From the IMG/VR virus record IMGVR_UViG_3300045836_000008: a stretch of DNA of 64,000 bases; one strand, 5' to 3'. Source of the stretch: a virus (Duplodnaviria > Heunggongvirae > Uroviricota > Caudoviricetes). The position numbers and the translations under genes are program-made. Shown piece after piece: positions 3,792-55,926 of this stretch. The first letter of the stretch is position 1; each line of letters opens with the position of its first letter. Under the pieces are notes generated by a model that saw nothing but the letters and a program-made list of their open reading frames with translations, did no database searches and was not told the origin of the DNA.

Positions 3792-3943
3792 TGGACCTGA
3801 TACAATACGCACTCGTTGCCGCGTGTGGGTTTGCGTTGTATCGCGAAGGCTTCAAACGCGGCGCACGTCAAGTCCTTGAAAAACTGGCAGAGATGGGTGT
3901 TGTGCAGTTGCAACAACCTGAACAAGACGAAGAAAACAGTTGA
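3767..3943 (+). CDS. small hypothetical membrane protein (58 aa, one predicted TM)
   Basis: ATG-initiated ORF overlapping the end of the previous gene with a hydrophobic LIQYALVAACGFALY segment. Below the 60-aa ORF-track cutoff. Confidence 0.3.
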   Translation: MYENIFSVMDLIQYALVAACGFALYREGFKRGARQVLEKLAEMGVVQLQQPEQDEENS

Positions 3944-3968
3944 CCAACCTTGGGAATGACTGTATAAT
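3940..3968 (+). promoter_or_regulatory. sigma70-type promoter (TTGACC-17-TATAAT) with CCTTGGGAA half-site in the spacer, driving the tRNA
   Basis: TTGACC aaccttgggaatgactg TATAAT read directly. Member of the window-wide promoter family. Confidence 0.6.
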
Positions 3969-4039
3969 GTGGTTTCACAGTTGATGATGTCGATCAACAC
4001 CGGTTCTTGTAGATTTGTCCGGGCAAAACAATCTCCGAT

Positions 4040-4112
4040 GGGTCGGTAGTTTATCTGGCTAAAACGGCGGACTCCAAACCCGCAGTGCAAGGTTCAAGTC
4101 CTTGTCGGCCCG
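4040..4112 (+). tRNA. tRNA, anticodon CCA (tRNA-Trp)
   Basis: Manual cloverleaf: acceptor GGGTCGG/TCGGCCC (two G-U pairs), U8, D-stem GTTT/AAAC with GG in the D-loop, anticodon loop CTCCAAA (U33, CCA, A37), T-arm CAAGG-TTCAAGT-CCTTG, discriminator G, encoded CCA at 4113-4115. One A-C mismatch at 31-39. Confidence 0.6.
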
Positions 4113-4167
4113 CCACATACTTGACCGCCAAGAGCGCGGAACTAAAACCTGAAGAGAAGTAGAGAAG

Positions 4168-4977: not shown

Positions 4978-5099
4978 ATCACGCGTGACGTGTAGGTAGG
5001 GAAAGCAAACGGAGCATGGGAAGCGATGGTCTTGAAAACCTAGCGGATACCGCACCGGCCTACACAAACAAGCCCAACGTTGGACATCTGAAAAAGGTG

Positions 5100-5129
5100 T
5101 TGACAACGTTGGGCTTTTTCGTTTATGAT
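5100..5129 (+). promoter_or_regulatory. promoter of the conserved family (TTGACA-acgttgggctttttcgt-TTATGAT, leader TTCACTCAC...GGAG)
   Basis: Read directly. Conserved leader and GGAG precede the ATG at 5163. Confidence 0.5.
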
Positions 5130-8892: not shown

Positions 8893-9399
8893 ATGCCCGA
8901 AGCCGAAGACGTAACAATCGCATTGCTGCAACGGGACTATGAACAGACGCAGCAGATCGTGTCCAAGATGGACACGGCAATCGAGAAGCTAACTGATCTT
9001 GGCGTTGACATGAAGCAGATGTTGGCGCTGCATGAACAACGAATTAACCGGCTTGAACAGATCGACAACGAAATTCATGGTCTTGTTGAAAAACGTCGAA
9101 CAGAACTACAGACGGACATCAAGGACGTGGATGCGAAATTGGCGAACACTATCAAGGAAATTACGGGCGACCTAGCCAACGTCGAGACACGCATCATGAA
9201 GGCCATCGCTGACGTGAAGGAAGACATCAAGTCCGACATCAAGACCGACAAGGAAGAGAAGGCCGAGTCCGACAAGGAACTGGTCAAGCGTGTCGAAAAG
9301 CTAGAGAAGTGGCGCTGGATGATGCTAGGCGGCGGTTTCGTCGTGGGCTTCATCATCGAGAAGGTTCTGCCCCTGCTTCTACCACACGTAGGTGGTTGA
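8893..9399 (+). CDS. hypothetical coiled-coil protein with C-terminal transmembrane segment
   Basis: Heptad-rich middle region and C-terminal WRWMMLGGGFVVGFIIEKVLPLLL segment. Confidence 0.5.
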   Translation: MPEAEDVTIALLQRDYEQTQQIVSKMDTAIEKLTDLGVDMKQMLALHEQRINRLEQIDNEIHGLVEKRRTELQTDIKDVDAKLANTIKEITGDLANVETRIMKAIADVKEDIKSDIKTDKEEKAESDKELVKRVEKLEKWRWMMLGGGFVVGFIIEKVLPLLLPHVGG

Positions 9400-9486
9400 C
9401 AAAACTCCCAGACTTGGGTATAAAGACGGCTTCGGTCGTCTTTTTGCATTTTGGGGCTTGCAAAATTCCCAAGCTTGTGAGATAAT
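9396..9486 (+). promoter_or_regulatory. two tandem family promoters flanking a UUCG-loop terminator
   Basis: TTGACA aaactcccagacttggg TATAAA, then terminator AGACGGC-UUCG-GUCGUCU + UUUUGCAUUUU (about 9424-9446), then TTGCAA aattcccaagcttgtga GATAAT. Precedes the primase. Confidence 0.6.
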
Positions 9487-9523
9487 ACGGTTTCGTTAGT
9501 CAAGCAACACCACGGAGTACCAC

Positions 9524-18677: not shown

Positions 18678-18722
18678 CCTAAATACCATGCAGATGAACT
18701 AAGAAATAAGGAGAACATCTGC

Positions 18723-18878
18723 ATGGCAACCACTCACTTCGAGTGCAATGAATGCGAAGCTTCATTCGCGATCAAGCACACCCTAGACAAGAATTATTAT
18801 CAGGTTCTTCATTGTCCCTTTTGTGGGTCAGAATTAGACAACGAGAACTATGATGTTGATGACAACGTAGACGAATGA
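18723..18878 (+). CDS. small zinc-ribbon protein (51 aa)
   Basis: CNEC...16 aa...CPFC. AT-rich region. Stop overlaps the next start (GAATGAAG). Confidence 0.35.
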   Translation: MATTHFECNECEASFAIKHTLDKNYYQVLHCPFCGSELDNENYDVDDNVDE

Positions 18879-20253: not shown

Positions 20254-20664
20254 ATGACGAACCTGTTCCGCATCTCGCTGACGAACGCAACCGGTCATCA
20301 CATCGAAGACAAGCCGTTCCCGAGTATCGAAGCTGCGCAAGCCTATGCCGACGAAGAAGGTAAGAAGTACGGCGCGACGCACTGCATGGCGGCGCTGATG
20401 GGCGAAGCCGTTCTAATGAAGGTCGAAGTCACCGACACGTTTGGCGGCGAAGCGAACTACTGTTGGGTCCATCGTCACGAACGCTGGATTCTGAAGGACA
20501 CATCCGACCGTGAGTGTGTCCGCATCGCCAAGGAACTCGAAGGCTGGACCGGCCATCCCTGCATGACCGAAAACTTCGGCGGCAAGTCTGGCTTCACGAT
20601 CCGCCCGCGTCACATGGCGCAGATCATGTTCATCAATTTCGACTACGATGTTGAAAATGCTTGA
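20254..20664 (+). CDS. hypothetical protein
   Basis: ATG after the leader GGAGTGACAAAC. Confidence 0.5.
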   Translation: MTNLFRISLTNATGHHIEDKPFPSIEAAQAYADEEGKKYGATHCMAALMGEAVLMKVEVTDTFGGEANYCWVHRHERWILKDTSDRECVRIAKELEGWTGHPCMTENFGGKSGFTIRPRHMAQIMFINFDYDVENA

Positions 20665-20689: not shown

Positions 20690-20728
20690 TCTTCCATCGA
20701 CAACGCAGCACAAACAGGAGATTCAAAC

Positions 20729-21004
20729 ATGGCACATACGACGAAAGGTCACATCCTGAACCCGGCACAGGCGAAGCACGTGTACGACGCGATGGTGACG
20801 CTGAACAATATCAGCGGCGTCATCCACGCGCGTGTTCCGGCTGGCTTCGGCCACATCGTCACCGTGCATCAAGAAATCATGAGCGATGATGTTGTCGTGC
20901 GTCAGTACATGCGCGGGCGTGGCCCGGACGGCGAAGACGAACTCACGTTGGTCGAGACGTTCGCGGACCAGAACGCATTCGCTGAAGCATACGGCGTAGC
21001 GTAA
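20729..21004 (+). CDS. hypothetical protein
   Basis: 91-aa ORF after a family promoter. Confidence 0.5.
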   Translation: MAHTTKGHILNPAQAKHVYDAMVTLNNISGVIHARVPAGFGHIVTVHQEIMSDDVVVRQYMRGRGPDGEDELTLVETFADQNAFAEAYGVA

Positions 21005-27754: not shown

Positions 27755-28241
27755 GGTCAGCACGTTTGCCTTCGTATTTTACTGGTACGTCATGGTGGTT
27801 CAGAACGACTGCCATGCCACGGTTCACATAGCCGTGATACCCATGATCGACCACGGCACGTTCAAATGCGTTGCTGTGGTCTTCCCCGTTGTACACGTGC
27901 TTCGCAGCCGTGTCGCGGATTTCCTTGCTATGTTCAGGTGAAGCCTTTTCCGGGTTGTACATCTTGTGCAGCGTTGCGCTGTACGTGTGCTGTCCGAGTC
28001 CACTTTCGTGTACCTTCGATACTTTCTCGCCAGCATCGGCGTGATAAAAGTAGACACGTTTCTTGATGCGTTCGTCCTTGGTTTCACCCAGACGCTTCGC
28101 TTCCGCACCCTTGATCCCCGTCCCGTATTTGTTGCCGTCCAGACTTGACAGACCTTCCTTGTGGGAGTAGTGCAGTCCGTGGATAGTGTCGCCCTTGATC
28201 GGTTCTTCCCGCTCGGACAGAAATTGTTTGAATGTTTGCAT
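27735..28241 (-). CDS. hypothetical protein on the minus strand (168 aa from MQTFKQ...)
   Basis: The only minus-strand ORF with coding-like composition in the + strand block. His/Gly/Lys-rich. Start codon abuts the -35 of the divergent + strand promoter. The longer track ORF upstream is antisense to the + gene 28305-28547. Confidence 0.4.
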   Translation of the reverse strand: MQTFKQFLSEREEPIKGDTIHGLHYSHKEGLSSLDGNKYGTGIKGAEAKRLGETKDERIKKRVYFYHADAGEKVSKVHESGLGQHTYSATLHKMYNPEKASPEHSKEIRDTAAKHVYNGEDHSNAFERAVVDHGYHGYVNRGMAVVLNHHDVPVKYEGKRADLMKGTS

Positions 28242-28270
28242 TGACAGATTCCCAACGTTGTTGGTACTAT
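28241..28270 (+). promoter_or_regulatory. family promoter TTGACA-gattcccaacgttgttgg-TACTAT
   Basis: Read directly. Drives 28305-28547. Confidence 0.55.
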
Positions 28271-28304
28271 TTAGGCTCTGACAACGACTAGGGAGTGCCC
28301 TAAC

Positions 28305-28547
28305 ATGACGACGAATCAATTCCTTCTTTCCGATGTTGGCTCGGATGCAACCGGCCAGACCAAGACCTTCGTGAACCTGCACGATGACGTGATCGCACCG
28401 AAGGGCGCGGTGTCTCTGTCGATTTCGACGGTCTACAACAAGGCCCGGAACCCGGACGCCCACATCTCGAAGCTGGCCCTGACGGTCGGTTCCAAGGACA
28501 AGCTGCGTGAACTCGGTCAGTTCTTGATCGACTTTGCGAATGCTTGA
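28305..28547 (+). CDS. hypothetical protein
   Basis: 80-aa ORF after a family promoter. Confidence 0.5.
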   Translation: MTTNQFLLSDVGSDATGQTKTFVNLHDDVIAPKGAVSLSISTVYNKARNPDAHISKLALTVGSKDKLRELGQFLIDFANA

Positions 28548-28573
28548 CGACATTCCCAAGGTTGGTGTATCAT
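28544..28573 (+). promoter_or_regulatory. family promoter TTGACG-acattcccaaggttggtg-TATCAT
   Basis: Palindrome CCAAGGTTGG. Leader AGCGATTCATCAACCTTGG repeats the half-site. Confidence 0.6.
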
Positions 28574-28599
28574 AGCGATTCATCAACCTTGGAAAGACT

Positions 28600-30277: not shown

Positions 30278-30664
30278 ATGGGTCTGACTGCAAGCATCTT
30301 CGTGAACAAGGAACCGGGCTACGAGAACTGTTCGAACGGCGGCATCTCCGCGCAGTTCCGACAGGTCTGCATCGTGAACGCGAGTGGTCCGAGTGAACCA
30401 CGTCCCGACTGCCCCGCCGTCATCATCGAGTCGCACGTGAAGGGTATCGTGCGGGCCATCCCGGCGCAGAACGTGCAAGGCGAATGGCGTGCCGTCGAGA
30501 TGGCACATTGTGTGGGGCCGATGGCCGGTGGTGCGTACATCGCCACATCGGACAGCCGGTTCGGTGAACTGGTCGAAAAGCTGATCGGTGGTCGGTTCTA
30601 TGGTGCAGTCGCGCTGCATGACCGCTTCGAATCGACGGAAGACTACAGCAGAAATTTCGATTAA
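30278..30664 (+). CDS. hypothetical protein
   Basis: 128-aa ORF. Confidence 0.5.
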   Translation: MGLTASIFVNKEPGYENCSNGGISAQFRQVCIVNASGPSEPRPDCPAVIIESHVKGIVRAIPAQNVQGEWRAVEMAHCVGPMAGGAYIATSDSRFGELVEKLIGGRFYGAVALHDRFESTEDYSRNFD

Positions 30665-30667
30665 CGC

Positions 30668-30718
30668 TTGACGAATTCCCAACGTTGCGATATGATTCAC
30701 ACATGCCGCAACGTTGGG
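30668..30718 (+). promoter_or_regulatory. family promoter TTGACG-aattcccaacgttgcga-TATGAT with a perfect 12-bp inverted repeat (CCCAACGTTGCG / CGCAACGTTGGG) bracketing the -10
   Basis: The two arms are exact reverse complements about 17 nt apart and flank TATGATTCACACATGC. Confidence 0.65.
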
Positions 30719-30741
30719 CGAACAAAACAGGAGAGTAGAAC

Positions 30742-31053
30742 ATGGGTATGACTGTCACGCCGAAGTACGCACTGGAAATCTTCACGAACAAACTGGTGAA
30801 CGGCAAGTGGGTGCAAGTCCCGGCGCTGGACTGCGCGACGTGGGACATCAAGCGCTATGGCCGTCCGACCGCAGAGAACTTGGAGAAGTACGTGATGGCG
30901 TATGCCAAGTCGCTCGAAGCCGGTGGCGTCAACGAAGGCATCTCGAAGGATTTGGGCTACATCCCGTATCCGACGAAGGCCGTGATCCGCTACAACCACA
31001 CCCACGGTGCAGAAGTCGCAGTGTGGAAGGCCGCAGCATTCCAAGTCTGGTAA
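30742..31053 (+). CDS. hypothetical protein
   Basis: 103-aa ORF. Confidence 0.5.
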   Translation: MGMTVTPKYALEIFTNKLVNGKWVQVPALDCATWDIKRYGRPTAENLEKYVMAYAKSLEAGGVNEGISKDLGYIPYPTKAVIRYNHTHGAEVAVWKAAAFQVW

Positions 31054-31307: not shown

Positions 31308-31553
31308 ATGAAGACGAATACGATTGGCCCGCACGATCAGCTTCCCAACAAGACGCGCGTGCGGGTCGGTATGAGACTTGGTGTGGTGGTGGACTCGAAG
31401 ATCGTGTCTGCCATCCCATCCGGTTTGATCGTGGTCCACACGATTGAATTCACCCATCGCATAGTTCGATGGCCCGCCAGAAGGTTCATCGAACTGAACC
31501 GTCCGATTCGGATGGAAGTGAACTATTCGGGTATCAGCGTCATACAGGATTAA
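31308..31553 (+). CDS. small hypothetical protein
   Basis: 81-aa ORF. Confidence 0.4.
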   Translation: MKTNTIGPHDQLPNKTRVRVGMRLGVVVDSKIVSAIPSGLIVVHTIEFTHRIVRWPARRFIELNRPIRMEVNYSGISVIQD

Positions 31554-31745
31554 ATGCTTCTCCGCGTCATCATTCTGTTTCTTCTGTTTGCTGGTGGATG
31601 TTGGGGCTTCATCACGATTGCCCCGCGTGTCACCGGCAAGCAGTGGTTGACGGTCGGCAAGATCGTCTCCAAGGCTGCAATCTGCGCAGTGGTCGCAGCC
31701 TGTTGTCTCGCCACACTCGCACTTCTACAACAAGCAACGAACTAA
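31554..31745 (+). CDS. small membrane protein with two predicted TM helices (holin-like topology possible)
   Basis: LLRVIILFLLFAGGCWGFITIA and AAICAVVAACCLATLALL. Confidence 0.4.
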   Translation: MLLRVIILFLLFAGGCWGFITIAPRVTGKQWLTVGKIVSKAAICAVVAACCLATLALLQQATN

Positions 31746-31759
31746 AGGTTCCACACGAT

Positions 31760-32557
31760 ATGAAAATTTTGAAGTCGCTGTTTCTCGTCATGATGATCGC
31801 GGCACTGGCCGCATGTGGCCGCATCGATACCGGTCATACCGGTGTCCGCACAAGCTGGAACAAGCAGGTTCAGCAAGAAGTCGTGCATCCGGGCATGTAC
31901 ATCGCAGTCACGGACTCGGTTCAACAGTACGTCACCAACGAAGTGACGTTCGAAATCAAAGACCTTCAGCCACAAACGCTGGACAAGTCGTACCTGAAGG
32001 ACTTGGACTTCTCGTACACGTACAAGGTCGATTCGTCGGACCTTCCGAACCTTGTCACCACGTTCAAGAACCGCACGGCGGTCAATGGTGACGACTACTA
32101 CCCGATGGGCCTGTACGTCGATACGCAGATTCGTGCAGCCGCCTACACCGCTGCTGGCAAGTTCAACGCGATGGACGCGAACTCGCACCGCAGCGACATC
32201 GAGAAAGACATCAAGACCATCGTCCAGTCGAAGTTCGCTGAAGAAGGTCTGGACAAGGTGATCCACGTGTCGCAGGTGACGATCCGCAACATCGAAGTCG
32301 ATCAGAAGCTTCAAGACGCCGTGGTGCGCCAGTTGAACGCCCAGACCGACAACAAGACCAAAGACATCGAAATCGACACGGCACAGAAAGAAGCCAAGCG
32401 TATGCAGATGTTGACCGAAAACAGTGGCGGTCAGACGTACATCAACCTGCTGAACGCCCAAGCGAACATGAAGATCGCAGAAGGCATCGCGAACGGTCGC
32501 GTCAACACCATCGTCGTGCCGACTGACTTCAAGGGCATCGTCAACACGGCGCACTGA
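31760..32557 (+). CDS. SPFH/band-7 (prohibitin-like) domain lipoprotein
   Basis: Lipoprotein signal LAAC-G followed by an SPFH-like region (long alpha-helical segment QKLQDAVVRQLNAQTDNKTKDIEID...). Confidence 0.55.
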   Translation: MKILKSLFLVMMIAALAACGRIDTGHTGVRTSWNKQVQQEVVHPGMYIAVTDSVQQYVTNEVTFEIKDLQPQTLDKSYLKDLDFSYTYKVDSSDLPNLVTTFKNRTAVNGDDYYPMGLYVDTQIRAAAYTAAGKFNAMDANSHRSDIEKDIKTIVQSKFAEEGLDKVIHVSQVTIRNIEVDQKLQDAVVRQLNAQTDNKTKDIEIDTAQKEAKRMQMLTENSGGQTYINLLNAQANMKIAEGIANGRVNTIVVPTDFKGIVNTAH

Positions 32558-32792: not shown

Positions 32793-33046
32793 TGGGCTAC
32801 TCGTACCGGTTCGGAACCCAGATTCAGACCTTCTGGCCGGATGACGACGAGAAGACCCTGTACTTCTCGTCGGATTCATACCTGACGGTTTCTGACATGC
32901 TGGAACAGGCCCGCGACCATTGGGGCCAAGATGTCAAGCTGGAAGACATCAACATCGGAGCCGAACACATCCACACGGATTGTCTCGGTTACGACAGGTA
33001 CGATGCTGGTGACTACACGAACTTCATCGTCCTGACACGCAAGTAA
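32792..33046 (+). CDS. small hypothetical protein
   Basis: 84-aa ORF. Confidence 0.4.
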   Translation: MGYSYRFGTQIQTFWPDDDEKTLYFSSDSYLTVSDMLEQARDHWGQDVKLEDINIGAEHIHTDCLGYDRYDAGDYTNFIVLTRK

Positions 33047-33120
33047 TCCCAAGGTTGGGAATGCTTGACAAGACTCCCGGTTGCGCGTATGATTCAACTC
33101 ATACCAACGCACCGGGAGTT
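33047..33120 (+). promoter_or_regulatory. family promoter: palindrome TCCCAAGGTTGGGA upstream, TTGACA-agactcccggttgcgcg-TATGAT, and inverted repeat ACTCCCGGTTGCG / CGCACCGGGAGT bracketing the -10, followed by UUUUC
   Basis: Read directly. The second arm plus the U-run could terminate read-through transcripts. Confidence 0.6.
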
Positions 33121-33125
33121 TTCAC

Positions 33126-33518
33126 ATGGACAACAAGATCGTTGACATCCGCATCGAAGGCGACTTGTATGTTGCCGGTCGCACGGAAGACGGTGAAGAC
33201 TACATCGCAGAGAACTTCATGGTATGCGTCGAGTTCGCCTACGGGGAAGTCTACCGTCACAAAACGATGTGGCTCGGTTGCAAGGTTCATGAAGCGGACC
33301 CCGAAGACGACTGGTATGGCATCGGCTTCGAAGACATCCGGGAAGCTTCCCGCGCATCCGCTGAACGTCTTCTCGCGCGTGTCACGGAACATGTGGGAAA
33401 AGGTGGTACTCTGAACATGGACCACTGGACCTTTCGTCGTACAAGTTACGGATCGCGCGCTTATCTGGACGAGTGCGCTATGATGACCCCGGCGCAACTG
33501 GCCGGAGAAAATGAATAA
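33126..33518 (+). CDS. hypothetical protein
   Basis: 130-aa ORF. Confidence 0.5.
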   Translation: MDNKIVDIRIEGDLYVAGRTEDGEDYIAENFMVCVEFAYGEVYRHKTMWLGCKVHEADPEDDWYGIGFEDIREASRASAERLLARVTEHVGKGGTLNMDHWTFRRTSYGSRAYLDECAMMTPAQLAGENE

Positions 33519-34610: not shown

Positions 34611-34753
34611 TTGACAAGCCCACGTATGTCTGTATAATTCGTTCTCAGGTTGTGACGCAAAACGAAACGCCGAAACGACCTGAACGATAACCAACCCCGT
34701 AGAAGAATCTACATCGTGTAGTTCTCTACTTTTCTTGATAAAGGAAATACATC
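34611..34753 (+). promoter_or_regulatory. promoter TTGACA-16-TATAAT followed by an unusually long (about 115 nt) structured 5' leader
   Basis: The leader contains hairpins (for example AGAAUCUACAUCGUGUAGUUCU) and a GGAAAUACAUC RBS region before the ATG at 34754. Confidence 0.5.
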
Positions 34754-35278
34754 ATGAAGAATATCGCACTCATCGCCGCAATCGCCGCAGCATTCGCAAT
34801 CAACGCACAAGCAGCCGACTTCAGCGGCGCAGTGACCGGTTCGGCATCGGCCTACCAAGGCGCAATCACCGGTTCGGTCGGCAGCGTGTCGCAGGGCAAC
34901 GCCGTGACTTCGGCGGAAGTGGTCGGCAACGGCAGTTCGTACCAGTCGGCCCAGAACGTGACCGGTGGTACGGCGACGGTCGGCGGCACGATCAACGCCG
35001 CTGGCGCATCGGTCGGCACGCAGACGACGCAGTACAGCAACTCGGTCGTGGTCGGCAAGACTTCGGGCGACGCCCCGGCCATGTCGGGCAACAGCATCGT
35101 GAACGGCGGTTCGGCATTCGGCCAGACCAACACGACCGCGACCGGCAACGCGACGTTCGGCAGCGGCGCAATCGGCGGCACGCTCGCCATCGCTGGTGTC
35201 GGCAGCATCGGCCCGGTCGCGCCGATTGGCGGCACGGATAACGGTGTCGGCAACGGCGGTCAGAACCACGGCAAGTAA
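34754..35278 (+). CDS. Sec-secreted Gly/Ser/Thr/Gln/Asn-rich repeat protein
   Basis: Signal peptide MKNIALIAAIAAAFAINAQA|AD. Mature protein is low-complexity with quasi-repeats (SxxxQGxxxGxxxxxxQGN...). No Cys. Confidence 0.7.
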   Translation: MKNIALIAAIAAAFAINAQAADFSGAVTGSASAYQGAITGSVGSVSQGNAVTSAEVVGNGSSYQSAQNVTGGTATVGGTINAAGASVGTQTTQYSNSVVVGKTSGDAPAMSGNSIVNGGSAFGQTNTTATGNATFGSGAIGGTLAIAGVGSIGPVAPIGGTDNGVGNGGQNHGK

Positions 35279-35919: not shown

Positions 35920-35968
35920 TTGACAGGGATTCCCAGACTTGATATAATGTTTGCTTCAAGTCTGGGAA
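35920..35968 (+). promoter_or_regulatory. family promoter TTGACA-gggattcccagacttga-TATAAT with a perfect 12-bp inverted repeat (TTCCCAGACTTG / CAAGTCTGGGAA) bracketing the -10
   Basis: Read directly. Confidence 0.65.
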
Positions 35969-35977
35969 CGCAGCAAG

Positions 35978-36139
35978 ATGAAGAAGAAAAAGAAGAACTT
36001 CAAGAATCACAAGAGCAACAAGATCGTGATCGAGTTCGAAACCACGAAGCCGCGAATTGGTGTGATCTTCACCAAAGTCGTGTCCAACAAAAACTTGAAG
36101 AAGCACAAGATCAAGCACAAGCACAAGGTTGTTGATTGA
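35978..36139 (+). CDS. small extremely Lys-rich basic protein (53 aa)
   Basis: MKKKKKNFKNHKSNKIVIEFETTKPRIGVIFTKVVSNKNLKKHKIKHKHKVVD. Low GC. The alternative-frame Glu/Gln-rich ORF 35917-36135 is the same sequence in another frame. Confidence 0.4.
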   Translation: MKKKKKNFKNHKSNKIVIEFETTKPRIGVIFTKVVSNKNLKKHKIKHKHKVVD

Positions 36140-37601: not shown

Positions 37602-37628
37602 ACGAAGTAGAACAAGAAGAGAGTGAAG

Positions 37629-38741
37629 ATGAAGCAATATGATGTCGTGGTGTACCGTGGGCGCTTTCAAGGAATGCACGAAGCGCACCTGAAGACTATT
37701 CTGATGGGTCTGCAACTCGCCAAGAAGGTCGTCGTGGTCATCGGTAGTGCGAACGAACCGCGCACCTACTACCGCAACCCGTTCTTCGAGAACGAACGTA
37801 TCGAGATGATCCGTGCGGCACTGGCCGATCACTTCCGGCACGATGACGTGGTATTCACGACCGTCGAAGATCATCCCGACGACAACGTATGGGCTGAAAT
37901 GGTCGCAGAGAACGTGCAAATAATGATCGATGCACTAGACCACGAAGGCGCATTTGGTGACAAGCTGAATCGTCTGCGCATCGGTCAGATTGGCTACAAG
38001 AAGGACGACAATTGCGTTCGTGACGTGGACCTGTTCCCGCAGTGGGAATACATCGATACGCCGCACTTCGAACCGCTCGATGCCACGAAGGTCCGCGAAA
38101 TCTACTTCAGCAAGACGCCGCTGACGTACCTGATGGGTGTGTGCCCCGCACCTGTAATCCGATGGCTGTCCGACTTCCGTGCAACGGAAGCGTTCGACCT
38201 GATGATGCAGGAAAAGGAATACTGCGACAACTACAAGAAGCAGTTCGAACATCTCGAATATGCGCCTACGTTCGTGACTGGTGACAACGTGCCGTTCCAA
38301 GACGACACGATCCTTCTGGTGAAGCGCAAGAACCATCCGGGCAAGGGTCTGTGGGCTTTCGCTGCTGGCTTCTTCAACGCTGCTGACCGTCTGACCAAGA
38401 ACGGCGAACTGGTCAAGGCCGACAAGTCCGTGTTCGACTGCGCCGTTCGTGAACTGTTCGAAGAGACGAACGCGAGTCTCACGAAAGAAGAACTGAAAGA
38501 AGCGTGCATCGCTGAAGGTCTGTTCGACGCAGAAGGTCGCGATCCGCGTGGCCGCATCGTGACGCAAGCATATGTCTACAACTTCGACGGTCGTGAAGTC
38601 TTCTCGGTCGAAGCATCGGACGATGCAGAAGAAGTGCGCCGCTTCCACATCTCGGAAGTGAATCGCCGCATGATGTATGCCGACCACTACAGCATCTTCT
38701 TGCAAGCGCTCGAATCCTATCGCAATTCGAAGTACAACTGA
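37629..38741 (+). CDS. nadM: bifunctional nicotinamide-mononucleotide adenylyltransferase / Nudix hydrolase (NadM-Nudix)
   Basis: N-terminal cytidylyltransferase-fold motif YRGRFQGMHEAH (the HxGH variant) and C-terminal Nudix box (GKGLWAFAAG...AVRELFEETNASL). Confidence 0.8.
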   Translation: MKQYDVVVYRGRFQGMHEAHLKTILMGLQLAKKVVVVIGSANEPRTYYRNPFFENERIEMIRAALADHFRHDDVVFTTVEDHPDDNVWAEMVAENVQIMIDALDHEGAFGDKLNRLRIGQIGYKKDDNCVRDVDLFPQWEYIDTPHFEPLDATKVREIYFSKTPLTYLMGVCPAPVIRWLSDFRATEAFDLMMQEKEYCDNYKKQFEHLEYAPTFVTGDNVPFQDDTILLVKRKNHPGKGLWAFAAGFFNAADRLTKNGELVKADKSVFDCAVRELFEETNASLTKEELKEACIAEGLFDAEGRDPRGRIVTQAYVYNFDGREVFSVEASDDAEEVRRFHISEVNRRMMYADHYSIFLQALESYRNSKYN

Positions 38742-38766
38742 AAACTCTCTACAGGAATCAAACCAC

Positions 38767-40128
38767 ATGCTGCAAACGAAAAACATCCAACTGTCGCAAA
38801 ACTTCGTTCTCGAATCGGATTCGTACAAGTTCAGCCACAACCCGGAAATCTACCCGGAAGGCGCAGAAGCGCTGCACTCGTATCTGTCGGCCCGCGTGAA
38901 GGGTTCGCGCGTGGTGCAGTTCGGCCTTCAGATGTGGATCAAGAAGAAGCTGCTGGCCCCGATCACGCTCGCGATGATCGATGAAGCCGAAGACTTCATC
39001 ACTCGTCACATCGGCCCCGGTGGTTTCGACCGTGGCTTCTGGGAACACATCCTGCACACGTACAACGGCTACATCCCGCTGGTGATCCGTGGTCTGCCGG
39101 AAGGCACTGTGACCGACAGCTACGACACGCTGGTGACGGTTGACTGTTTCGACCCGCGCGTGTTCCCGCTGGCGCAGCACATCGAAGCATCGCTGCAATC
39201 TGACCTGTGGTACAGCACGACCATCGCGACGAACGATCTGGAAAACTACGAAGTCGCGAAGTCGCACTTCGATCTGTTCTCGGACAACCCGGTTCTTCTC
39301 GCGTTCATGCTTCACGACTTCGGCGCACGCGGTGTGACCTGTGAAGAACAACGCCAGATTGGCGGCGCAGCGCACCTGATCTTCTTCCAAGGTTCGGACA
39401 CGATCAGCGGCATCCGTGCGGCAAACCTGTTCTACAACTGCGAGATGGCCGCGTATTCGGTTCGCGCCACGGAACATAGCATCCAGTGCGCCTACGGCCC
39501 CGAAGGGCAAGAAGAGTACATCCGGCGCGTCCTGAAGGCACATGCGAAACCGGGCAACATCGTGTCGCTGGTTCTCGACGGCTACAACGTGTGGCGCGAA
39601 GCCGAACTTCTCTGCACGAAGTTCAAAGACCAAATCATCGAAAGCGGCGCGAAGATCGTCTTCCGTCCCGATTCGGGTGACATGTTCGAAGTGGTTCCGC
39701 GCATTCTCGAAATGCAAGCGCAACACTTCGGCTTCACCGTGAACTCGAAGGGCAAGAAGGTCATCAACAACGTTGGTGTCATCCAAGGTGACGGCATCGA
39801 CAAGATCACGTTCATGCTGCTGATGCAGAAGGTCGTGGCCCTTGGCTATGCCCCTGAATGCGTCGTGATGGGTTCCGGTGGCGGTTTGCTTCAGAAGGTC
39901 AACCGTGACACGCTGAAGTTCGCGCAGAAGGCCGCAGCCATCAAGATCAATGGTGTCTGGGTTGACATGTTCAAAGACCCGATCACCGATCCGGGCAAGA
40001 AGTCGAAGACCGGTCGTCAAGACGATCCGCGCTTCGTCACGTTCTACGACCACGGCGAACTGTTGGTCGATGAATCGCTCGACGTGATCCGGGCACGTGC
40101 GCTCGAAGGCGCAAAAATTCGCAAGTAA
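38767..40128 (+). CDS. nadV: nicotinamide phosphoribosyltransferase (NadV/NAMPT)
   Basis: 454 aa. Family-typical segments (SDSYKFSH, GARGV, QGDGI, VMGSGGGLLQK). Adjacent to nadM as in KVP40-type phages. Confidence 0.85.
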   Translation: MLQTKNIQLSQNFVLESDSYKFSHNPEIYPEGAEALHSYLSARVKGSRVVQFGLQMWIKKKLLAPITLAMIDEAEDFITRHIGPGGFDRGFWEHILHTYNGYIPLVIRGLPEGTVTDSYDTLVTVDCFDPRVFPLAQHIEASLQSDLWYSTTIATNDLENYEVAKSHFDLFSDNPVLLAFMLHDFGARGVTCEEQRQIGGAAHLIFFQGSDTISGIRAANLFYNCEMAAYSVRATEHSIQCAYGPEGQEEYIRRVLKAHAKPGNIVSLVLDGYNVWREAELLCTKFKDQIIESGAKIVFRPDSGDMFEVVPRILEMQAQHFGFTVNSKGKKVINNVGVIQGDGIDKITFMLLMQKVVALGYAPECVVMGSGGGLLQKVNRDTLKFAQKAAAIKINGVWVDMFKDPITDPGKKSKTGRQDDPRFVTFYDHGELLVDESLDVIRARALEGAKIRK

Positions 40129-40141
40129 TCCCAAGTCTGGG

Positions 40142-40190
40142 TTGACGTAACACGAACCGACAGGTATGATATGCCTGTCGGTTTCTTTTT
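40142..40190 (+). promoter_or_regulatory. promoter TTGACG-17-TATGAT whose -10 lies in the loop of a terminator hairpin (ACCGACAGG-UAUGAUAU-CCUGUCGGU + UUCUUUUU). An upstream CCCAAGTCTGGG half-site palindrome abuts the -35
   Basis: Read directly. Combined terminator for nadV and promoter for the next gene. Confidence 0.6.
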
Positions 40191-40202
40191 GGAGTGAATC
40201 AC

Positions 40203-40493
40203 ATGGCTACTACATTCGAAGAAATCGTGAAGTTCATGTCGGGACTCACGATCAATACGGACCACGGCGTTATCATCAAGACTGCGACCGGCGAACATCG
40301 GGTCGTGATCCGCATCCCGGCGCGTGGTTATCCGCGCGTGGTGATGAAGGGTACGAACGGGCTACTGGTCGTCTACCGCCTGAAGGGCAACGTGTTGGAG
40401 AAATTAGGGTACAAGGGTACGGTCTACAGCGTCGCAGAGTTCGACAAGCTGGCGGCAAACCCGGTAGCAACAATCGAGTGGCATTCCCGGTAA
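40203..40493 (+). CDS. hypothetical protein
   Basis: ATG after GGAGTGAATCAC. Confidence 0.5.
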   Translation: MATTFEEIVKFMSGLTINTDHGVIIKTATGEHRVVIRIPARGYPRVVMKGTNGLLVVYRLKGNVLEKLGYKGTVYSVAEFDKLAANPVATIEWHSR

Positions 40494-42113: not shown

Positions 42114-42162
42114 ATCGTACCTGAACGAATTCCCAAAGCTGAGAATAGTTCGCAAAAGTTGC

Positions 42163-42226
42163 TTGACATGTAAAAGACACATCTGTAGAATGTTTCATTA
42201 TTGAAACACCAGATGTGTCTTTTCAA
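42163..42226 (+). promoter_or_regulatory. promoter TTGACA-17-TAGAAT embedded in a 13-bp-stem hairpin (AAAAGACACAUCU ... AGAUGUGUCUUUU) whose 26-nt loop contains the -10 and an inner hairpin. A weaker family-like element (CTGAAC-gaattcccaaagctgag-AATAGT) lies just upstream at 42121
   Basis: Read directly. Confidence 0.55.
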
Positions 42227-42247
42227 CCCCTTCTCGGAGAAGTAACC

Positions 42248-42499
42248 ATGAAGTTTCAGTGCAATGACGTACATGGTGTATTCGAGTACGATTTCTCGGA
42301 TATGTCCGGTTGGTCGATGAAGGTCAAGAACTACCACAACAAAGGTGACATCATCGACGTGGATTTCGATGTCGTTGTCGAATCCCACTTCGAAGCCGAT
42401 TTCCTGAACGGCAAGTTCACGGCAATCGATCAAGAAGCCCAAGCATGGGCGAAGACGCTGCAAGAGTTCATGCAAACCGAATCGTTGGCTATCGCGTAG
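42248..42499 (+). CDS. hypothetical protein
   Basis: ATG after CTCGGAGAAGTAACC. Confidence 0.5.
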   Translation: MKFQCNDVHGVFEYDFSDMSGWSMKVKNYHNKGDIIDVDFDVVVESHFEADFLNGKFTAIDQEAQAWAKTLQEFMQTESLAIA

Positions 42500-46756: not shown

Positions 46757-46792
46757 TTGACAAGGTTGGGAATGCGCGATAGTATTCCCAAC
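46757..46792 (+). promoter_or_regulatory. family promoter TTGACA-aggttgggaatgcgcga-TAGTAT with inverted repeat TTGGGAAT / ATTCCCAA bracketing the -10
   Basis: Read directly. Confidence 0.6.
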
Positions 46793-46807
46793 AAACAAGA
46801 GTCAAAG

Positions 46808-46939
46808 ATGAAGATTGAACGCTGTCCCCGGTGCGAGAAGAACCGATACAACGATTCGCCATACAACTACGTGTGGTGGTCCGTGATGGGTGTTGGGTAT
46901 ATGTGCTGGCACTGCTTCAAGTGCCTGAAAGCTAAATAG
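46808..46939 (+). CDS. small zinc-ribbon protein (43 aa)
   Basis: MKIERCPRCEKNRYNDSPYNYVWWSVMGVGYMCWHCFKCLKAK. ATG after CAAGAGTCAAAG. Confidence 0.4.
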   Translation: MKIERCPRCEKNRYNDSPYNYVWWSVMGVGYMCWHCFKCLKAK

Positions 46940-47876: not shown

Positions 47877-47905
47877 GGCCCGCCCTGTGCGGGCCTTTTT
47901 ATTTT
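47877..47905 (+). terminator. rho-independent terminator (GGCCCGC-CCUGU-GCGGGCC + UUUUUAUUUU)
   Basis: 7-bp GC stem plus a U-tract, immediately followed by a family promoter. Confidence 0.8.
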
Positions 47906-48179: not shown

Positions 48180-48544
48180 TGGACGCGCTGATCGATGGTT
48201 TCTGGGCCGGTGTCGGGATTGCATTCTTCCTGTTCACACCGGTTTTTCTTGGCTGTTTGCGATGGGAGAAGAAGGCTATGAAAACTGTGTACATCGTGCC
48301 CGCGTGGTCGGATCAAGCAGGACAGTGCAGGATCGTCGCCACGGTCACGGCGCAGAAGTTGTCGAACGTGGCGCGCGACTACGACCACTACCCGGACAAG
48401 TGGCGTGAAGTCGGCATCATGAACAGCCAAGGCAAGCTGGTCTGCTATGACGGCAAGCCGGAAGAGCGCGCTGAAATCCTGTCGTGCGAACCGCTGGCCG
48501 CTGGTATGGTCTTCGAGTTCGAAGGAATTCATCAACCCGCTTGA
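48179..48544 (+). CDS. hypothetical membrane protein (N-terminal TM)
   Basis: GFWAGVGIAFFLFTPVFLGCL segment. ATG overlaps the upstream stop (TGATG). Confidence 0.5.
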   Translation: MDALIDGFWAGVGIAFFLFTPVFLGCLRWEKKAMKTVYIVPAWSDQAGQCRIVATVTAQKLSNVARDYDHYPDKWREVGIMNSQGKLVCYDGKPEERAEILSCEPLAAGMVFEFEGIHQPA

Positions 48545-48598
48545 CAACGAACTCCCAAGTGTGTAAGATTCTCACATCGACAACGCACTTGGGAGTTC
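48541..48598 (+). promoter_or_regulatory. family promoter TTGACA-acgaactcccaagtgtg-TAAGAT with a perfect 13-bp inverted repeat (GAACTCCCAAGTG ... CACTTGGGAGTTC) spanning the -10 and conserved leader TCTCACATCGACAACG
   Basis: The arms are exact reverse complements separated by about 24 nt. Confidence 0.65.
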
Positions 48599-48602
48599 AG
48601 AC

Positions 48603-48812
48603 ATGGCAAACTACATCGTCCACCTTCAAAACGAACTGAAGGACGCGAACGCCAAGCTGGCCGCGATGCAGGAAGAGATTCAGAACTTCCGCCGTCACCT
48701 TCAGTCCAGCAAGTTCCAGAACGTCGAAGGTCAAGAACGCAACGACTGGATCGCAGTCGCGGACGTGCAACGCTGGCTCGATAATATCGTCAACGCCGAA
48801 CAAAGCAGTTGA
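48603..48812 (+). CDS. small hypothetical coiled-coil protein
   Basis: 69-aa ORF. ATG after GGAGTTCAGAC. Confidence 0.45.
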   Translation: MANYIVHLQNELKDANAKLAAMQEEIQNFRRHLQSSKFQNVEGQERNDWIAVADVQRWLDNIVNAEQSS

Positions 48813-55865: not shown

Positions 55866-55893
55866 AGGGGGCTTCGGCCCCCTTTTCTTTTTC
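55866..55893 (+). terminator. rho-independent terminator with UUCG tetraloop (AAGGGGGC-UUCG-GCCCCCUU + UUCUUUUU)
   Basis: Perfect 8-bp stem. Preceded by a second small hairpin (GUGAUU...AAUCAC). Confidence 0.85.
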
Positions 55894-55926
55894 CCAAGCT
55901 TGTAAAATCAATAAGGACCGATTACA

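What the first reader, a model, noticed from the sequence alone, without database searches (positions are those of the whole stretch)
30668..30718. Perfect inverted repeats bracketing the -10 element (split-operator variant of the family promoter)
In several copies the half-site is duplicated so that exact reverse-complement arms flank the -10. Examples: CCCAACGTTGCG[17 nt with TATGAT]CGCAACGTTGGG at 30678-30718; TTCCCAGACTTG[TATAAT...]CAAGTCTGGGAA at 35930-35968; GAACTCCCAAGTG[24 nt]CACTTGGGAGTTC at 48549-48598; ACTCCCGGTTGCG...CGCACCGGGAGT at 33073-33119; TTGGGAAT...ATTCCCAA at 46767-46792. Because transcription starts between the arms, the RNA cannot form this hairpin. The symmetry therefore operates at the DNA level (cruciform or dimeric-protein operator), or only in read-through transcripts from upstream where it would act as a terminator. 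The arm sequences covary between copies while the symmetry is preserved, which argues for selection on pairing or binding.
Basis: seen in the sequence. Interest (0 to 1): 0.8.

Follow-up and report, generated by a model that had tools for sequence, protein, structure and literature searches.

The report
Early promoters nested inside RNA hairpins
In this uncultivated T4-like phage many early promoters sit inside a hairpin-forming inverted repeat, so RNA reading through from the upstream gene can fold into a stem-loop while RNA started at the promoter cannot; this matches the already described "promoter plus stem-loop" cassettes of T4-type phages and is not a new kind of operator.

Summary
At 30678-30689 and 30707-30718, perfect 12-nt arms flank the -10 box (TATGAT) of a near-consensus sigma-70 promoter. 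The window holds 11 perfect inverted repeats of at least 11 nt, against 0.35 expected. Four of them bracket a -10 box and one brackets a -35 box.

In related metagenomic genomes (about 70-97% nucleotide identity) the orthologous promoter keeps a perfect helix with three different arm sequences, so the arms change in a compensatory way.

The "split operator" reading is not supported:
- Arm sequences and arm spacing (3-29 nt) differ between copies.
- Some copies use arms unrelated to the family box.
- Several tolerate sense-strand G·U pairs.
- Some carry U-runs.

The phage is a divergent T4-like myovirus (gp32, gp41 and gp61 homologues). The elements lie between small genes of unknown function. 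Phage RB49, run through the same scan, shows the same layout. They are therefore best read as PeSL-type promoter/stem-loop cassettes, in which the stem-loop acts on read-through RNA and promoter-initiated RNA lacks the 5' arm.

In three copies (33065, 35920, 48541) the 3' arm masks the ribosome-binding site, as in T4 gene e. In the focal copy it does not, and there is no U-run, so its exact RNA-level role is inferred. This is a new member of a known kind, of modest interest.

The parts
30662..30664 (+). Stop codon (TAA) of the upstream gene 30278-30664. It lies only 3 nt before the -35 box, so the upstream mRNA must run into the promoter.
30668..30673 (+). -35 hexamer TTGACG of the focal promoter
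30678..30689 (+). 5' arm CCCAACGTTGCG, inside the 17-nt spacer. It overlaps the clade-specific ATTCCCA box.
30691..30696 (+). -10 hexamer TATGAT, in the loop of the hairpin
30703..30703 (+). Predicted transcription start (7 nt after the -10 box). Inferred, not measured.
   Evidence: inference from promoter geometry
30707..30718 (+). 3' arm CGCAACGTTGGG, at the 5' end of the promoter's own transcript
30730..30744 (+). Shine-Dalgarno GGAGA (30730-30734) and ATG (30742-30744) of the ORFan 30742-31053. Not masked by the hairpin.
5070..5124 (+). Hairpin AAGCCCAACGTTG/CAACGTTGGGCTT that brackets the -35 box (5100-5105) and is followed by TTTCGTTT. Terminator-like. Conserved with covariation in four relatives.
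28241..28286 (+). Promoter with a 9-bp helix CGTTGTTGG/CTGACAACG (two G·U) around the -10 box
28544..28592 (+). Promoter with a 12-bp helix CCAAGGTTGGTG/CATCAACCTTGG (one G·U) around the -10 box
33065..33128 (+). Promoter with a helix AAGACTCCCGGT/ACCGGGAGTTTT around the -10 box. The 3' arm contains the SD GGGAGT of gene 33126-33518, so this is the RBS-masking subclass.
35920..35980 (+). Promoter with 13/13 arms TTCCCAGACTTGA/TCAAGTCTGGGAA around the -10 box. The 3' arm covers the SD-like GGGAA. The extended helix is specific to this genome.
40142..40205 (+). Promoter whose -10 box lies in the hairpin 40154-40184, followed by TCTTTTT. Canonical intrinsic-terminator shape. Conserved in three relatives through G·U pairs and one A-U to G-C exchange.
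42163..42250 (+). Promoter with 14/14 arms AAAAGACACATCTG/CAGATGTGTCTTTT around the -10 box. The arms are unrelated to the family box.
46757..46810 (+). Promoter with arms GTTGGGAAT/ATTCCCAAC. The 3' arm overlaps the -10 box. A hairpin is kept in four relatives with different arms and loops of 4-17 nt.
48541..48605 (+). Promoter with a 16-bp helix GAACTCCCAAGTGTGT/ACGCACTTGGGAGTTC around the -10 box. The 3' arm contains the SD GGGAGT of gene 48603-48812, so this is the RBS-masking subclass.
33045..33061 (+). Free-standing copy of the box palindrome AATCCCAAGGTTGGGAA between the stop codon and the -35 box. A second such copy is at 40127-40141.

Best explanation
The element is a PeSL-type composite cassette (promoter-early stem-loop) in the variable early region of a divergent T4-like phage. 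A near-consensus sigma-70 promoter is packed into a roughly 75-nt gap between two small genes, and an inverted repeat is laid over it.

The repeat works as a hairpin in sense-strand RNA. Transcripts arriving from the upstream gene contain both arms and fold into a 12-bp stem whose loop holds the -10 box. Transcripts started at the embedded promoter begin between the arms, lack the 5' arm and stay unstructured.

The hairpin therefore marks and insulates the end of the upstream transcription unit without affecting the unit that starts there. It could do this by attenuating or pausing read-through, or by forming a protective 3' end.

The family has sub-types:
- With a U-run the hairpin looks like an intrinsic terminator (5100, 40142).
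- With the Shine-Dalgarno sequence in the 3' arm it blocks translation of read-through RNA only (33065, 48541, 35920).
- The focal copy belongs to neither sub-type.

Shown: geometry, non-randomness, evolutionary maintenance of pairing, and the fold difference between the two RNA species. Inferred: that the RNA rather than the DNA is the active form for the focal copy, and what the hairpin does to read-through RNA.
For: 1. Non-random: 11 perfect inverted repeats of at least 11 nt against 0.35 in shuffles. Five of them overlap promoter boxes.

2. Fold contrast for the focal copy. Read-through RNA folds at -25.9 kcal/mol, z = -3.1. The promoter's own leader folds at -4.7, z = +0.5. The same contrast holds at the other hairpin-bearing promoters. 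Seven of the nine have read-through z of -2.9 to -6.9 with own leaders of 0 to -4.7. 28241 is weak (z = -1.1) and 42163 was cut short in that run.

3. Orthologues of the focal promoter keep the helix with three different arm sequences:
- window and L126: CCCAACGTTGCG / CGCAACGTTGGG.
- L213 and L214: TCCCACGTTTGG / CCAAACGTGGGA.
- L215: TTCCCGCGTTTGGTA / TACCAAACGCGGGAA.
- L213 and L215 differ by a clean A-U to G-C double change.
- All six versions have z of -3.4 to -6.2.
- L126 is 83% identical to the window overall. The 43 nt from the box to the 3' arm are identical in the two printed sequences.

4. The same geometry occurs with arms unrelated to the box (42163, 40142) and at shifted registers in orthologues of 46757, with loops of 4-17 nt. 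What is conserved is therefore a hairpin, not a sequence.

5. Sense-strand G·U pairs are used. The 40142 orthologues fold at -23.7 and -22.8 on the sense strand against -11.5 and -9.9 on the antisense strand. 28544, 28241 and the 48541 orthologues also use G·U.

6. Context. The stop codon is 3 nt before the -35 box, and only two canonical sense-strand terminators were found in 20 kb.

7. The phage is T4-like. Its gp32 homologue is 46% identical to T4-like cyanophage gp32, and it has gp41- and gp61-like proteins. The downstream genes are ORFans.

8. RB49, the phage in which PeSLs were defined, gives the same layouts when run through the same scan. These include stems that bracket the -10 box. 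[quoted passage not shown]

9. Across 67 cassettes in 9 loci, a helix of at least 7 bp overlaps the -10 box in 27, overlaps the -35 box in 7, and lies upstream in 9.
Against: - The focal hairpin is followed by CGAACAAA, with no U-run in any genome, so it is not a canonical intrinsic terminator.
- It is purely Watson-Crick. Sense RNA, antisense RNA and DNA all fold about equally well, so RNA versus DNA is not resolved for this copy.
- The overall strand-asymmetry test is only suggestive (43 against 27, p = 0.07, and the cases are not independent).
- 22 of 67 cassettes have no helix, so the hairpin is not obligatory.
The 35920 helix is lost in the relatives (z near 0), and 48541 is weak in L213 and L214.
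- The left-hand box ATTCCCA is conserved as a sequence, which pairing alone does not explain.
- No transcript data exist, and the host is unknown.
Confidence: 0.62

Rival explanations
1. Split operator. A dimeric DNA-binding regulator recognises the two arms on duplex DNA on either side of the -10 box and represses or activates the promoter.
For: - The usual spacer element is a quasi-palindrome, (A/T)TTCCCA-N4-TGGG, present in about 15 promoters of the window. It is conserved as a sequence across the clade.
- On its own this box gives no significant RNA fold (z near 0).
- The focal arms are pure Watson-Crick.
Against: - Arm spacing varies from 3 to 29 nt. Arm sequences differ between copies and between orthologues of one promoter.
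- The L215 arms are not themselves palindromic. They match 15/15 as inverted copies but only 6/15 as direct copies (read by eye from the sequences), so they are not two copies of one site.
- 42163 and 40142 have the geometry without the box. Several promoters have the box without a second arm.
- G·U pairs are tolerated in sister helices.
- The box floats 3-6 nt after the -35 box, and its right half is degenerate or absent in relatives (ATTCCCAAACCTG).
Confidence: 0.08
2. DNA-level structure. The repeat extrudes as a cruciform, or folds in single-stranded DNA during replication or recombination. It then acts as a target for recombination or structure-specific nucleases that shuffle the cassettes, or as a supercoil-sensitive switch of the promoter.
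For: - Folded with DNA parameters the element gives -17.3 kcal/mol, z = -3.7.
- The PeSL authors speculated that the stem may be a target of a recombination protein, and mapped one crossover to the loop.
- Cassettes are kept while the ORFan next to them is exchanged between relatives, as at P40142 and P46757.
- The window and L122 differ in a mosaic patch at 30350-30950 that spans the focal promoter.
Against: - The loops are 13-29 nt. Large central spacers strongly disfavour cruciform extrusion (my own knowledge, not tested here).
- The G·U pairs needed in sister helices would be A·C mismatches on the other strand.
- U-runs and SD occlusion in sister copies point to RNA.
- Genes next to a promoter were not clearly more variable than other genes in my tally: about 5 of 11 against about 9 of 33 absent from the relatives.
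Confidence: 0.1
3. Translational masking, as in T4 gene e. The focal hairpin hides the ribosome-binding site in read-through RNA, so the gene is translated only from its own promoter's transcript.
For: This is true for sister copies. SD pairing probability in read-through RNA is 0.99-1.0 at 33065, 48541 and 35920, against 0.23-0.43 in their own transcripts. This exceeds at least 95% of the shuffled-upstream controls, and it is conserved in orthologues of 33065. T4 precedent: PMC3014915, section 29.
Against: - In the focal copy the SD lies 11 nt after the helix. Its pairing probability is 0.42 in read-through RNA, against 0.47 in its own transcript and 0.35 in controls.
- In the orthologues the SD is more open than in controls: 0.04 and 0.08 against about 0.5.
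- Across all 45 cassettes tested there is no general masking (0.67 against 0.68).
Confidence: 0.04
4. Mutational by-product. Perfect arms arise through template switching or arm-to-arm conversion at a quasi-palindromic spacer box, and have no function of their own.
For: - The arms are perfect rather than merely good.
- Some are lineage-specific. 35920 is perfect only in the window. The 13-nt arm of 48541 shrinks to 9 nt in the near-identical L131.
- One-step copying would mimic compensatory change.
Against: - Helices persist at orthologous sites in four to six genomes separated by 20-30% nucleotide divergence. This holds for 30668, 33065, 40142, 5100 and 46757.
- The focal hairpin is unchanged in L126 while the flanks are 83% identical.
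- Imperfect helices keep their pairing through G·U, which copying would not produce.
Confidence: 0.12

Closest known systems
PeSLs (promoter-early stem-loops) of T4-type phages: RB49/phi1 (Arbiol et al. 2010, PMC2839356), and T4/PST and KVP40/nt-1 (Comeau et al. 2014, PMC4122927)
   Same: - Near-consensus sigma-70 promoter (TTGACA-N17-TATAAT) repeated many times between small ORFans of a T4-like genome.
- Upstream stop codon at the 5' edge, and SD plus ATG at the 3' edge.
- A stem-loop laid over the promoter at variable positions, including around the -10 box.
- A clade-specific stem sequence.
- Cassettes kept while neighbouring ORFans are exchanged.
- RB49 run through my own scan shows the same layouts.
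- Even the leader resembles RB49's: CATACCAACG and AGGAGATTCAAACATG here, against CATACCGAAACG and AGGAGAATCAAACATG in RB49.
   Different: - The stem is C-first, CCCA...TGGG, with an invariant ATTCCCA left half. RB49 has GGGG...CCCC.
- Many copies have arms of 12-16 nt with loops of 13-29 nt, whereas RB49 typically has 7-8 bp stems with 3-6 nt loops.
- The genome is 53% G+C and from soil metagenomes.
- The region upstream of -35 is only mildly AT-rich (57% against 46%).
- Terminator activity, promoter activity and mini-circle formation have not been tested here.
RBS-sequestering hairpins with an internal promoter in T4 genes e, soc, 49 and I-TevI (reviewed in PMC3014915, section 29)
   Same: The promoter lies in or behind the 5' strand of the helix, so long upstream transcripts form the structure and promoter-initiated transcripts lack it. 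In copies 33065, 48541 and 35920 the SD is in the 3' arm, exactly as in T4 gene e.
   Different: - In T4 the internal promoter is a late promoter (TATAAATA) and the device delays expression. Here it is a sigma-70-type promoter of the same class as its neighbours.
- The focal copy does not mask its SD.
Rho-independent (intrinsic) terminators that overlap the next promoter
   Same: A stable hairpin directly after a stop codon. Copies 5100 and 40142 have G+C-rich stems followed by a U-run.
   Different: The focal hairpin and most -10-bracketing copies have no U-run, and their loops are much longer than the usual 3-8 nt.

Membership tests
PeSL (promoter-early stem-loop cassette) | Strong sigma-70-like promoter close to TTGACA-N17-TATAAT | tested here: met
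   The focal promoter is TTGACG-17-TATGAT. About 20 such promoters lie on the + strand of the window, 13 of them in 28-48 kb with 10-12 of 12 consensus matches.
PeSL (promoter-early stem-loop cassette) | A stem-loop-forming sequence attached to the promoter, at one of several positions (in the spacer, over -35, over -10, upstream, downstream) | tested here: met
   In 67 cassettes, a helix of at least 7 bp lies over -10 in 27, over -35 in 7 and upstream in 9. The focal copy has z = -3.1. RB49 shows the same classes in the same scan.
PeSL (promoter-early stem-loop cassette) | Located between small, mostly orphan genes in variable regions of a T4-type phage genome | tested here: met
   gp32, gp41 and gp61 homologues. 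Ten flanking small proteins gave no Pfam family above threshold. Gene content is variable among relatives.
PeSL (promoter-early stem-loop cassette) | Upstream stop codon and AT-rich tract at the 5' side; SD and start codon at the 3' side | tested here: met
   Stop at 30662-30664, SD at 30730-30734, ATG at 30742. The 20 nt upstream of -35 average 57% A+T against 46% for the window, which is a weak enrichment.
PeSL (promoter-early stem-loop cassette) | The stem-loop terminates or attenuates transcription coming from upstream | not testable with these tools
   Needs reporter or in vitro transcription assays. Terminator shape (a U-run) is present at 5100 and 40142 and absent at the focal copy.
PeSL (promoter-early stem-loop cassette) | Copies recombine with each other, so insertions, deletions and replacements between close relatives are bounded by cassettes, and mini-circles form | tested here: inconclusive
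   P40142 and P46757 are conserved while the ORFan behind them is replaced. L215 carries about 1.6 kb extra with two additional cassettes between the orthologues of 40235 and 40582. The excess of variable genes next to promoters is not clear (my tally: about 5 of 11 against about 9 of 33). The window/L122 difference at the focal promoter is part of a 600-nt mosaic patch.
T4 gene e / soc / 49 / I-TevI type RBS masking | SD and/or start codon paired in the helix of upstream-initiated transcripts | tested here: not met
   Focal copy: SD pairing is 0.42 in read-through RNA against 0.35 in controls, and the orthologues are more open than controls. The feature is met by the sister copies 33065, 48541 and 35920.
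T4 gene e / soc / 49 / I-TevI type RBS masking | The internal promoter belongs to a later temporal class (T4 late promoter) | tested here: not met
   The internal promoter is sigma-70-type with a -35 box, like its neighbours.
Intrinsic terminator | G+C-rich stem with a short loop, followed directly by a U-run | tested here: not met
   The focal tail is CGAACAAA (0 U in 8 nt) and the loop is 17 nt, in all genomes. The consensus scan reports only 40154-40184 and 47877-47895 as strong sense-strand sites in 28-48 kb.
Operator of a dimeric DNA-binding regulator | The same half-site sequence at a fixed spacing in all regulated promoters | tested here: not met
   The arms differ between copies and between orthologues, and the spacing ranges from 3 to 29 nt.

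The most novel reading that the evidence does not exclude
The invariant left-hand box (A/T)TTCCCA is conserved as a sequence in promoter spacers across this clade, floats by a few nucleotides, and is separable from the hairpins. It could be the recognition site of a clade-specific phage protein. That protein might be a global switch for the early promoters in a T4-like lineage that may lack the T4 AsiA/MotA system, or a recombinase or nuclease that mobilises the cassettes. The 3' arms would then have evolved secondarily to pair with the box.
Probability: 0.12. Interest if true: 0.6.

Novelty: new member of a known kind. Interest (0 to 1): 0.3.

Why it matters
- It extends the PeSL promoter/stem-loop cassette design to an uncultivated soil clade of about 168-kb T4-like phages. 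The design has so far been described in only a few cultivated T4-type phages and is rarely cited.
- It adds something the original descriptions lacked: comparative evidence that the pairing over the promoter is maintained through compensatory change.
- It shows that one architecture (promoter in the loop, 5' arm untranscribed) is used in at least three ways in one genome: terminator-like, RBS-masking, and neither.
- For annotators, it warns that palindromes over phage promoters need not be operators.

Tried and rejected
- Megablast of 8 kb against GenBank phages found no match, so no annotated close relative exists.
Protein-anchored searches worked instead.
- MAFFT alignments of the focal orthologues put the arms out of structural register, because the helix has slipped between lineages. 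I therefore did not use the column-based pair-count or covariance-model tools. I compared the helices sequence by sequence.
- A genome-wide 'anti-SD in every spacer' model was tested and rejected. In this model the ATTCCC box would mask GGGAGT in all read-through RNAs. Mean SD pairing was 0.67 against 0.68 in controls, and only 9 of 45 cassettes were specifically masked.
- The standard spacer palindrome as a stand-alone RNA hairpin gave no significant fold (z near 0).
- The strand test comparing G·T with A·C was only suggestive (p = 0.07).
- The idea that promoter 34611 drives a small RNA was dropped. It drives a long, poorly conserved leader of the gene at 34754.
- Rfam found only a tRNA in the window.
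- The genome-contig scan, the structure prediction tools and the large protein searches were not used. They would not bear on a non-coding element.

Full report
**1. What is in the sequence**

The focal region reads cgcTTGACGaattCCCAACGTTGCGaTATGATtcacacatgcCGCAACGTTGGGcgaacaaaacaGGAGAgtagaacATG. Its parts are:
- The upstream gene stops at 30662-30664.
- -35 box TTGACG at 30668-30673, a 17-nt spacer, and -10 box TATGAT at 30691-30696.
- Perfect 12-nt arms at 30678-30689 and 30707-30718, separated by a 17-nt loop that holds the -10 box.
- SD GGAGA at 30730-30734 and ATG at 30742.

The 46757 copy has its 3' arm overlapping the -10 box rather than flanking it. The 33065 copy has a one-nucleotide bulge.

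The window contains 11 perfect inverted repeats of at least 11 nt with loops of 3-45 nt. Twenty dinucleotide-preserving shuffles gave a mean of 0.35. Four of the 11 bracket a -10 box: 30678, 35930, 42172 and 48549. One (5070) brackets a -35 box.

Allowing G·U pairs or one mismatch adds three copies: 28556/28581, 28256/28278 and 40155/40171.

**2. The promoter family**

About 20 promoters on the + strand share one pattern: gcTTGACA, then 1-4 nt, then ATTCCCA-N4-TGG(G), then TAnnAT, a leader resembling TC..CATCGACAACG, GGAGT, and ATG.

The box is over-represented. TTCCCA occurs 27 times against 13 expected, and about 15 of those are in promoter spacers.

On its own the box gives no significant RNA fold, with z near 0 at 20661, 30014, 40500, 48809 and 49188. 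It floats 3-6 nt after the -35 box. Its right half is degenerate in several copies and largely absent in relatives, where the spacer reads ATTCCCAAACCTG.

The box and the hairpin are separable. 42163 and 40142 have hairpins with unrelated arms, and several box promoters have no second arm.

**3. What genome this is**

There is no close relative in GenBank phages. The window encodes:
- homologues of T4 gp41, gp61, ribonucleotide reductase, DNA ligase and gp32;
- NAD-salvage enzymes and an SPFH protein.

The gp32 homologue is 46% identical to that of T4-like cyanophages. Nearly all genes are on one strand, and many are small. Ten small proteins next to the hairpin promoters gave no Pfam family above threshold.

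The window is therefore the early, variable region of a divergent T4-like myovirus.

Relatives come from IMG/VR and JGI metagenomes:
- Near-identical fragments: L121/L122 at 97-98.6% and L131 at 99.4%.
- L126 at 83% nucleotide identity.
- Three genomes of about 168 kb at roughly 70-80% nucleotide identity: L123/L215/L133, L213/L135 and L214/L136.
- L132 and L134.

The ATTCCCA box is confined to this clade. It occurs in 12 of 96 loci scanned and in none of the loci whose primase is 51% identical or less.

**4. Is the pairing maintained?**

Orthologues of the focal promoter:

| Genome | 5' arm | 3' arm | Note |
|---|---|---|---|
| window, L126 | CCCAACGTTGCG | CGCAACGTTGGG | perfect 12 |
| L121 | same | same | closing pair lost; loop replaced |
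| L213, L214 | TCCCACGTTTGG | CCAAACGTGGGA | perfect 12 |
| L215 | TTCCCGCGTTTGGTA | TACCAAACGCGGGAA | perfect 15 |

L213 and L215 differ by a single clean A-U to G-C exchange. All six versions fold with z between -3.4 and -6.2. In L126 the 43 nt from the box to the 3' arm are identical to the window in the printed sequences. The flanking DNA is 83% identical.

Other orthologous sets:
- 33065: z of -5.4 to -8.6 in four genomes.
- 40142: z of -3.3 to -5.1.
- 5100: z of -5.0 to -6.7 in five genomes.
- 46757: z of -2.5 to -5.3 in five genomes, with different arms and loops of 4-17 nt.

Not all are kept. The extended 35920 helix exists only in the window. The 48541 helix is strong only in the window, L131 and L132.

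**5. RNA or DNA; operator or hairpin**

The evidence against a duplex-DNA operator:
- Arm spacing ranges from 3 to 29 nt.
- Arm sequences differ between copies and between orthologues.
- The L215 arms match 15/15 as inverted copies but only 6/15 as direct copies (read by eye). They are therefore not two copies of a palindromic site.
- The same geometry occurs with arms unrelated to the box.

The evidence for sense-strand RNA:
- The 40142 orthologues need two to six G·U pairs. They fold at -23.7 and -22.8 kcal/mol on the sense strand against -11.5 and -9.9 on the antisense strand.
- 28544, 28241 and the L131 and L132 versions of 48541 also use G·U.
- 5100 and 40142 are followed by U-runs.
- In three copies the 3' arm contains the SD.

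A global count of G·T-extended against A·C-extended helices gave 43 against 27 (p = 0.07, cases not independent). That is only suggestive.

For the focal helix itself, which is purely Watson-Crick, the sense RNA, antisense RNA and DNA folds are equivalent. Its assignment to the RNA level therefore rests on its sister elements.

**6. What the hairpin does**

Read-through RNA folds at -25.9 kcal/mol, z = -3.1. The promoter's own leader folds at -4.7, z = +0.5. The same contrast holds at the other hairpin-bearing promoters, most clearly at seven of the nine.

I tested whether the upstream, untranscribed part masks the SD. I compared SD pairing probability in read-through RNA, in the promoter's own RNA, and in 40 controls with the upstream part shuffled:
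- Masking is specific at 33065, 48541 and 35920 and their orthologues (9 of 45 cassettes).
- It is absent overall (0.67 against 0.68).
- It is absent at the focal copy (0.42 against 0.35 in controls). In L213 and L215 the SD is more open than in controls.

The focal hairpin has no U-run in any genome.

The stop codon lies 3 nt before the -35 box, and canonical terminators are scarce. I therefore infer that the hairpin forms the boundary of the upstream transcription unit, either as an attenuator or pause site or as a protective 3'-end structure. The embedded promoter's own mRNA is left free. This last step is inference.

**7. Comparison with what is known**

Arbiol et al. 2010 (PMC2839356) defined PeSLs in RB49 and phi1. 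[quoted passage not shown] One stem reduced downstream lacZ expression as much as rrnB T1. Comeau et al. 2014 extended PeSLs to T4/PST and KVP40/nt-1, with clade-specific stems.

I ran the RB49 variable region through the same script. It shows:
- TTGAC[AGGGGATC]acc[GATCCCCT]ATACT, with the stem in the spacer.
- TTGACAccggatc[GGGGATAT]agcata[ATATCCCC], with the stem around the -10 box.
- TTGACTc[AAACGGGG]actagttttatactag[CCCCGTTT]tctg, also around the -10 box.

This is the same architecture.

[quoted passage not shown] The difference is that the internal promoter here is not a late promoter.

**8. Verdict**

The 'split operator' label and the DNA-level reading are not favoured. The read-through RNA alternative is.

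The element is a new member of the PeSL kind in a new clade. It has longer arms and loops than RB49 and a distinct, unexplained invariant box. The residual uncertainty is the precise effect of the U-less focal hairpin on read-through RNA, and the function of the ATTCCCA box.

Noticed in passing
window 3940-4115: A family-type promoter carries the box in reverse orientation (TTGACCaaccTTGGGAATgactgTATAAT) and has no ORF behind it. It drives a tRNA-Trp (CCA) at 4040-4115. The same promoter is conserved in L133, L135 and L136.
   Followed up: partly
window 20695-20731, 33100-33109; L216 (RB49): The transcribed leader and SD-to-ATG stretch of the cassettes resemble those of the RB49 PeSLs. The window has CATCGACAACG, CATACCAACG and AGGAGATTCAAACATG. 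RB49 has CATCGAAACG, CATACCGAAACG, CATACCAACG and AGGAGAATCAAACATG. The two phages differ widely in G+C content and habitat. This could be shared ancestry of the cassette or convergence on a strong, unstructured leader.
   Followed up: partly
window 33045-33061 and 40127-40141: Free-standing copies of the box palindrome (AATCCCAAGGTTGGGAA and AATCCCAAGTCTGGG) sit directly after a stop codon and before the -35 box of promoters whose spacer lacks the standard box. In the relatives the 40127 copy keeps CCCA/TGGG with a variable 4-nt centre.
   Followed up: partly
window 9396-9500: Two promoters in tandem. The first (box CTCCCAGACTTGGG, -10 TATAAA) is followed at once by a canonical terminator, GACGGCTTCGGTCGTC plus TTTTT. 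Then comes a second box promoter, TTGCAA...ATTCCCAAGCTTG...GATAAT.
   Followed up: no
window 18686-18726: A perfect 11-nt inverted repeat, CCATGCAGATG / CATCTGCATGG. Its loop holds an SD (GGAG) and its 3' arm holds an ATG. It is a possible translational hairpin at a gene start with no promoter.
   Followed up: no
window 34611-34756: A consensus promoter (TTGACA-16-TATAAT) is followed by a leader of about 110 nt, rich in A and C, before the gene at 34754. That gene has a signal-peptide-like N-terminus. The first 20 nt or so of the leader (CTCAGGTTGnGACGCAAA) are conserved in L214 and L215, and the rest is not. It is probably a long 5' UTR rather than a small RNA.
   Followed up: partly
window 30350-30950 compared with L122: In a relative that is otherwise 97-98.6% identical, the differences cluster in a patch of about 600 nt spanning the focal promoter and both flanking genes. 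This indicates a recombinational mosaic. Within it, the loop of the focal hairpin is replaced by a more consensus-like version (gTAAGATTCattCCAT).
   Followed up: partly
window 40142-40493 and 46757-46939 compared with L213-L215 and L132: The promoter/hairpin cassette is conserved at the orthologous position, but the small ORF immediately behind it has no homologue in the relatives. In L132 the 46808 ORF is reduced to 7 codons. This is the pattern expected for cassette-bounded ORFan exchange.
   Followed up: partly
window 42124-42160 and 55867-55925: Degenerate cassettes. AATTCCCAAAGCTGAGAATAGT has no recognisable -35 box and lies just upstream of promoter 42163. At 55892 a strong terminator hairpin (GGGGGCTTCGGCCCCC plus T-run) is fused to TCCCAAGCTTGTAAAAT.
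   Followed up: no
window 37623-40128: The phage carries an NAD-salvage pair, an NMN adenylyltransferase-Nudix fusion and a nicotinamide phosphoribosyltransferase. It also carries an SPFH/Band-7 protein at 31469-32557.
   Followed up: no
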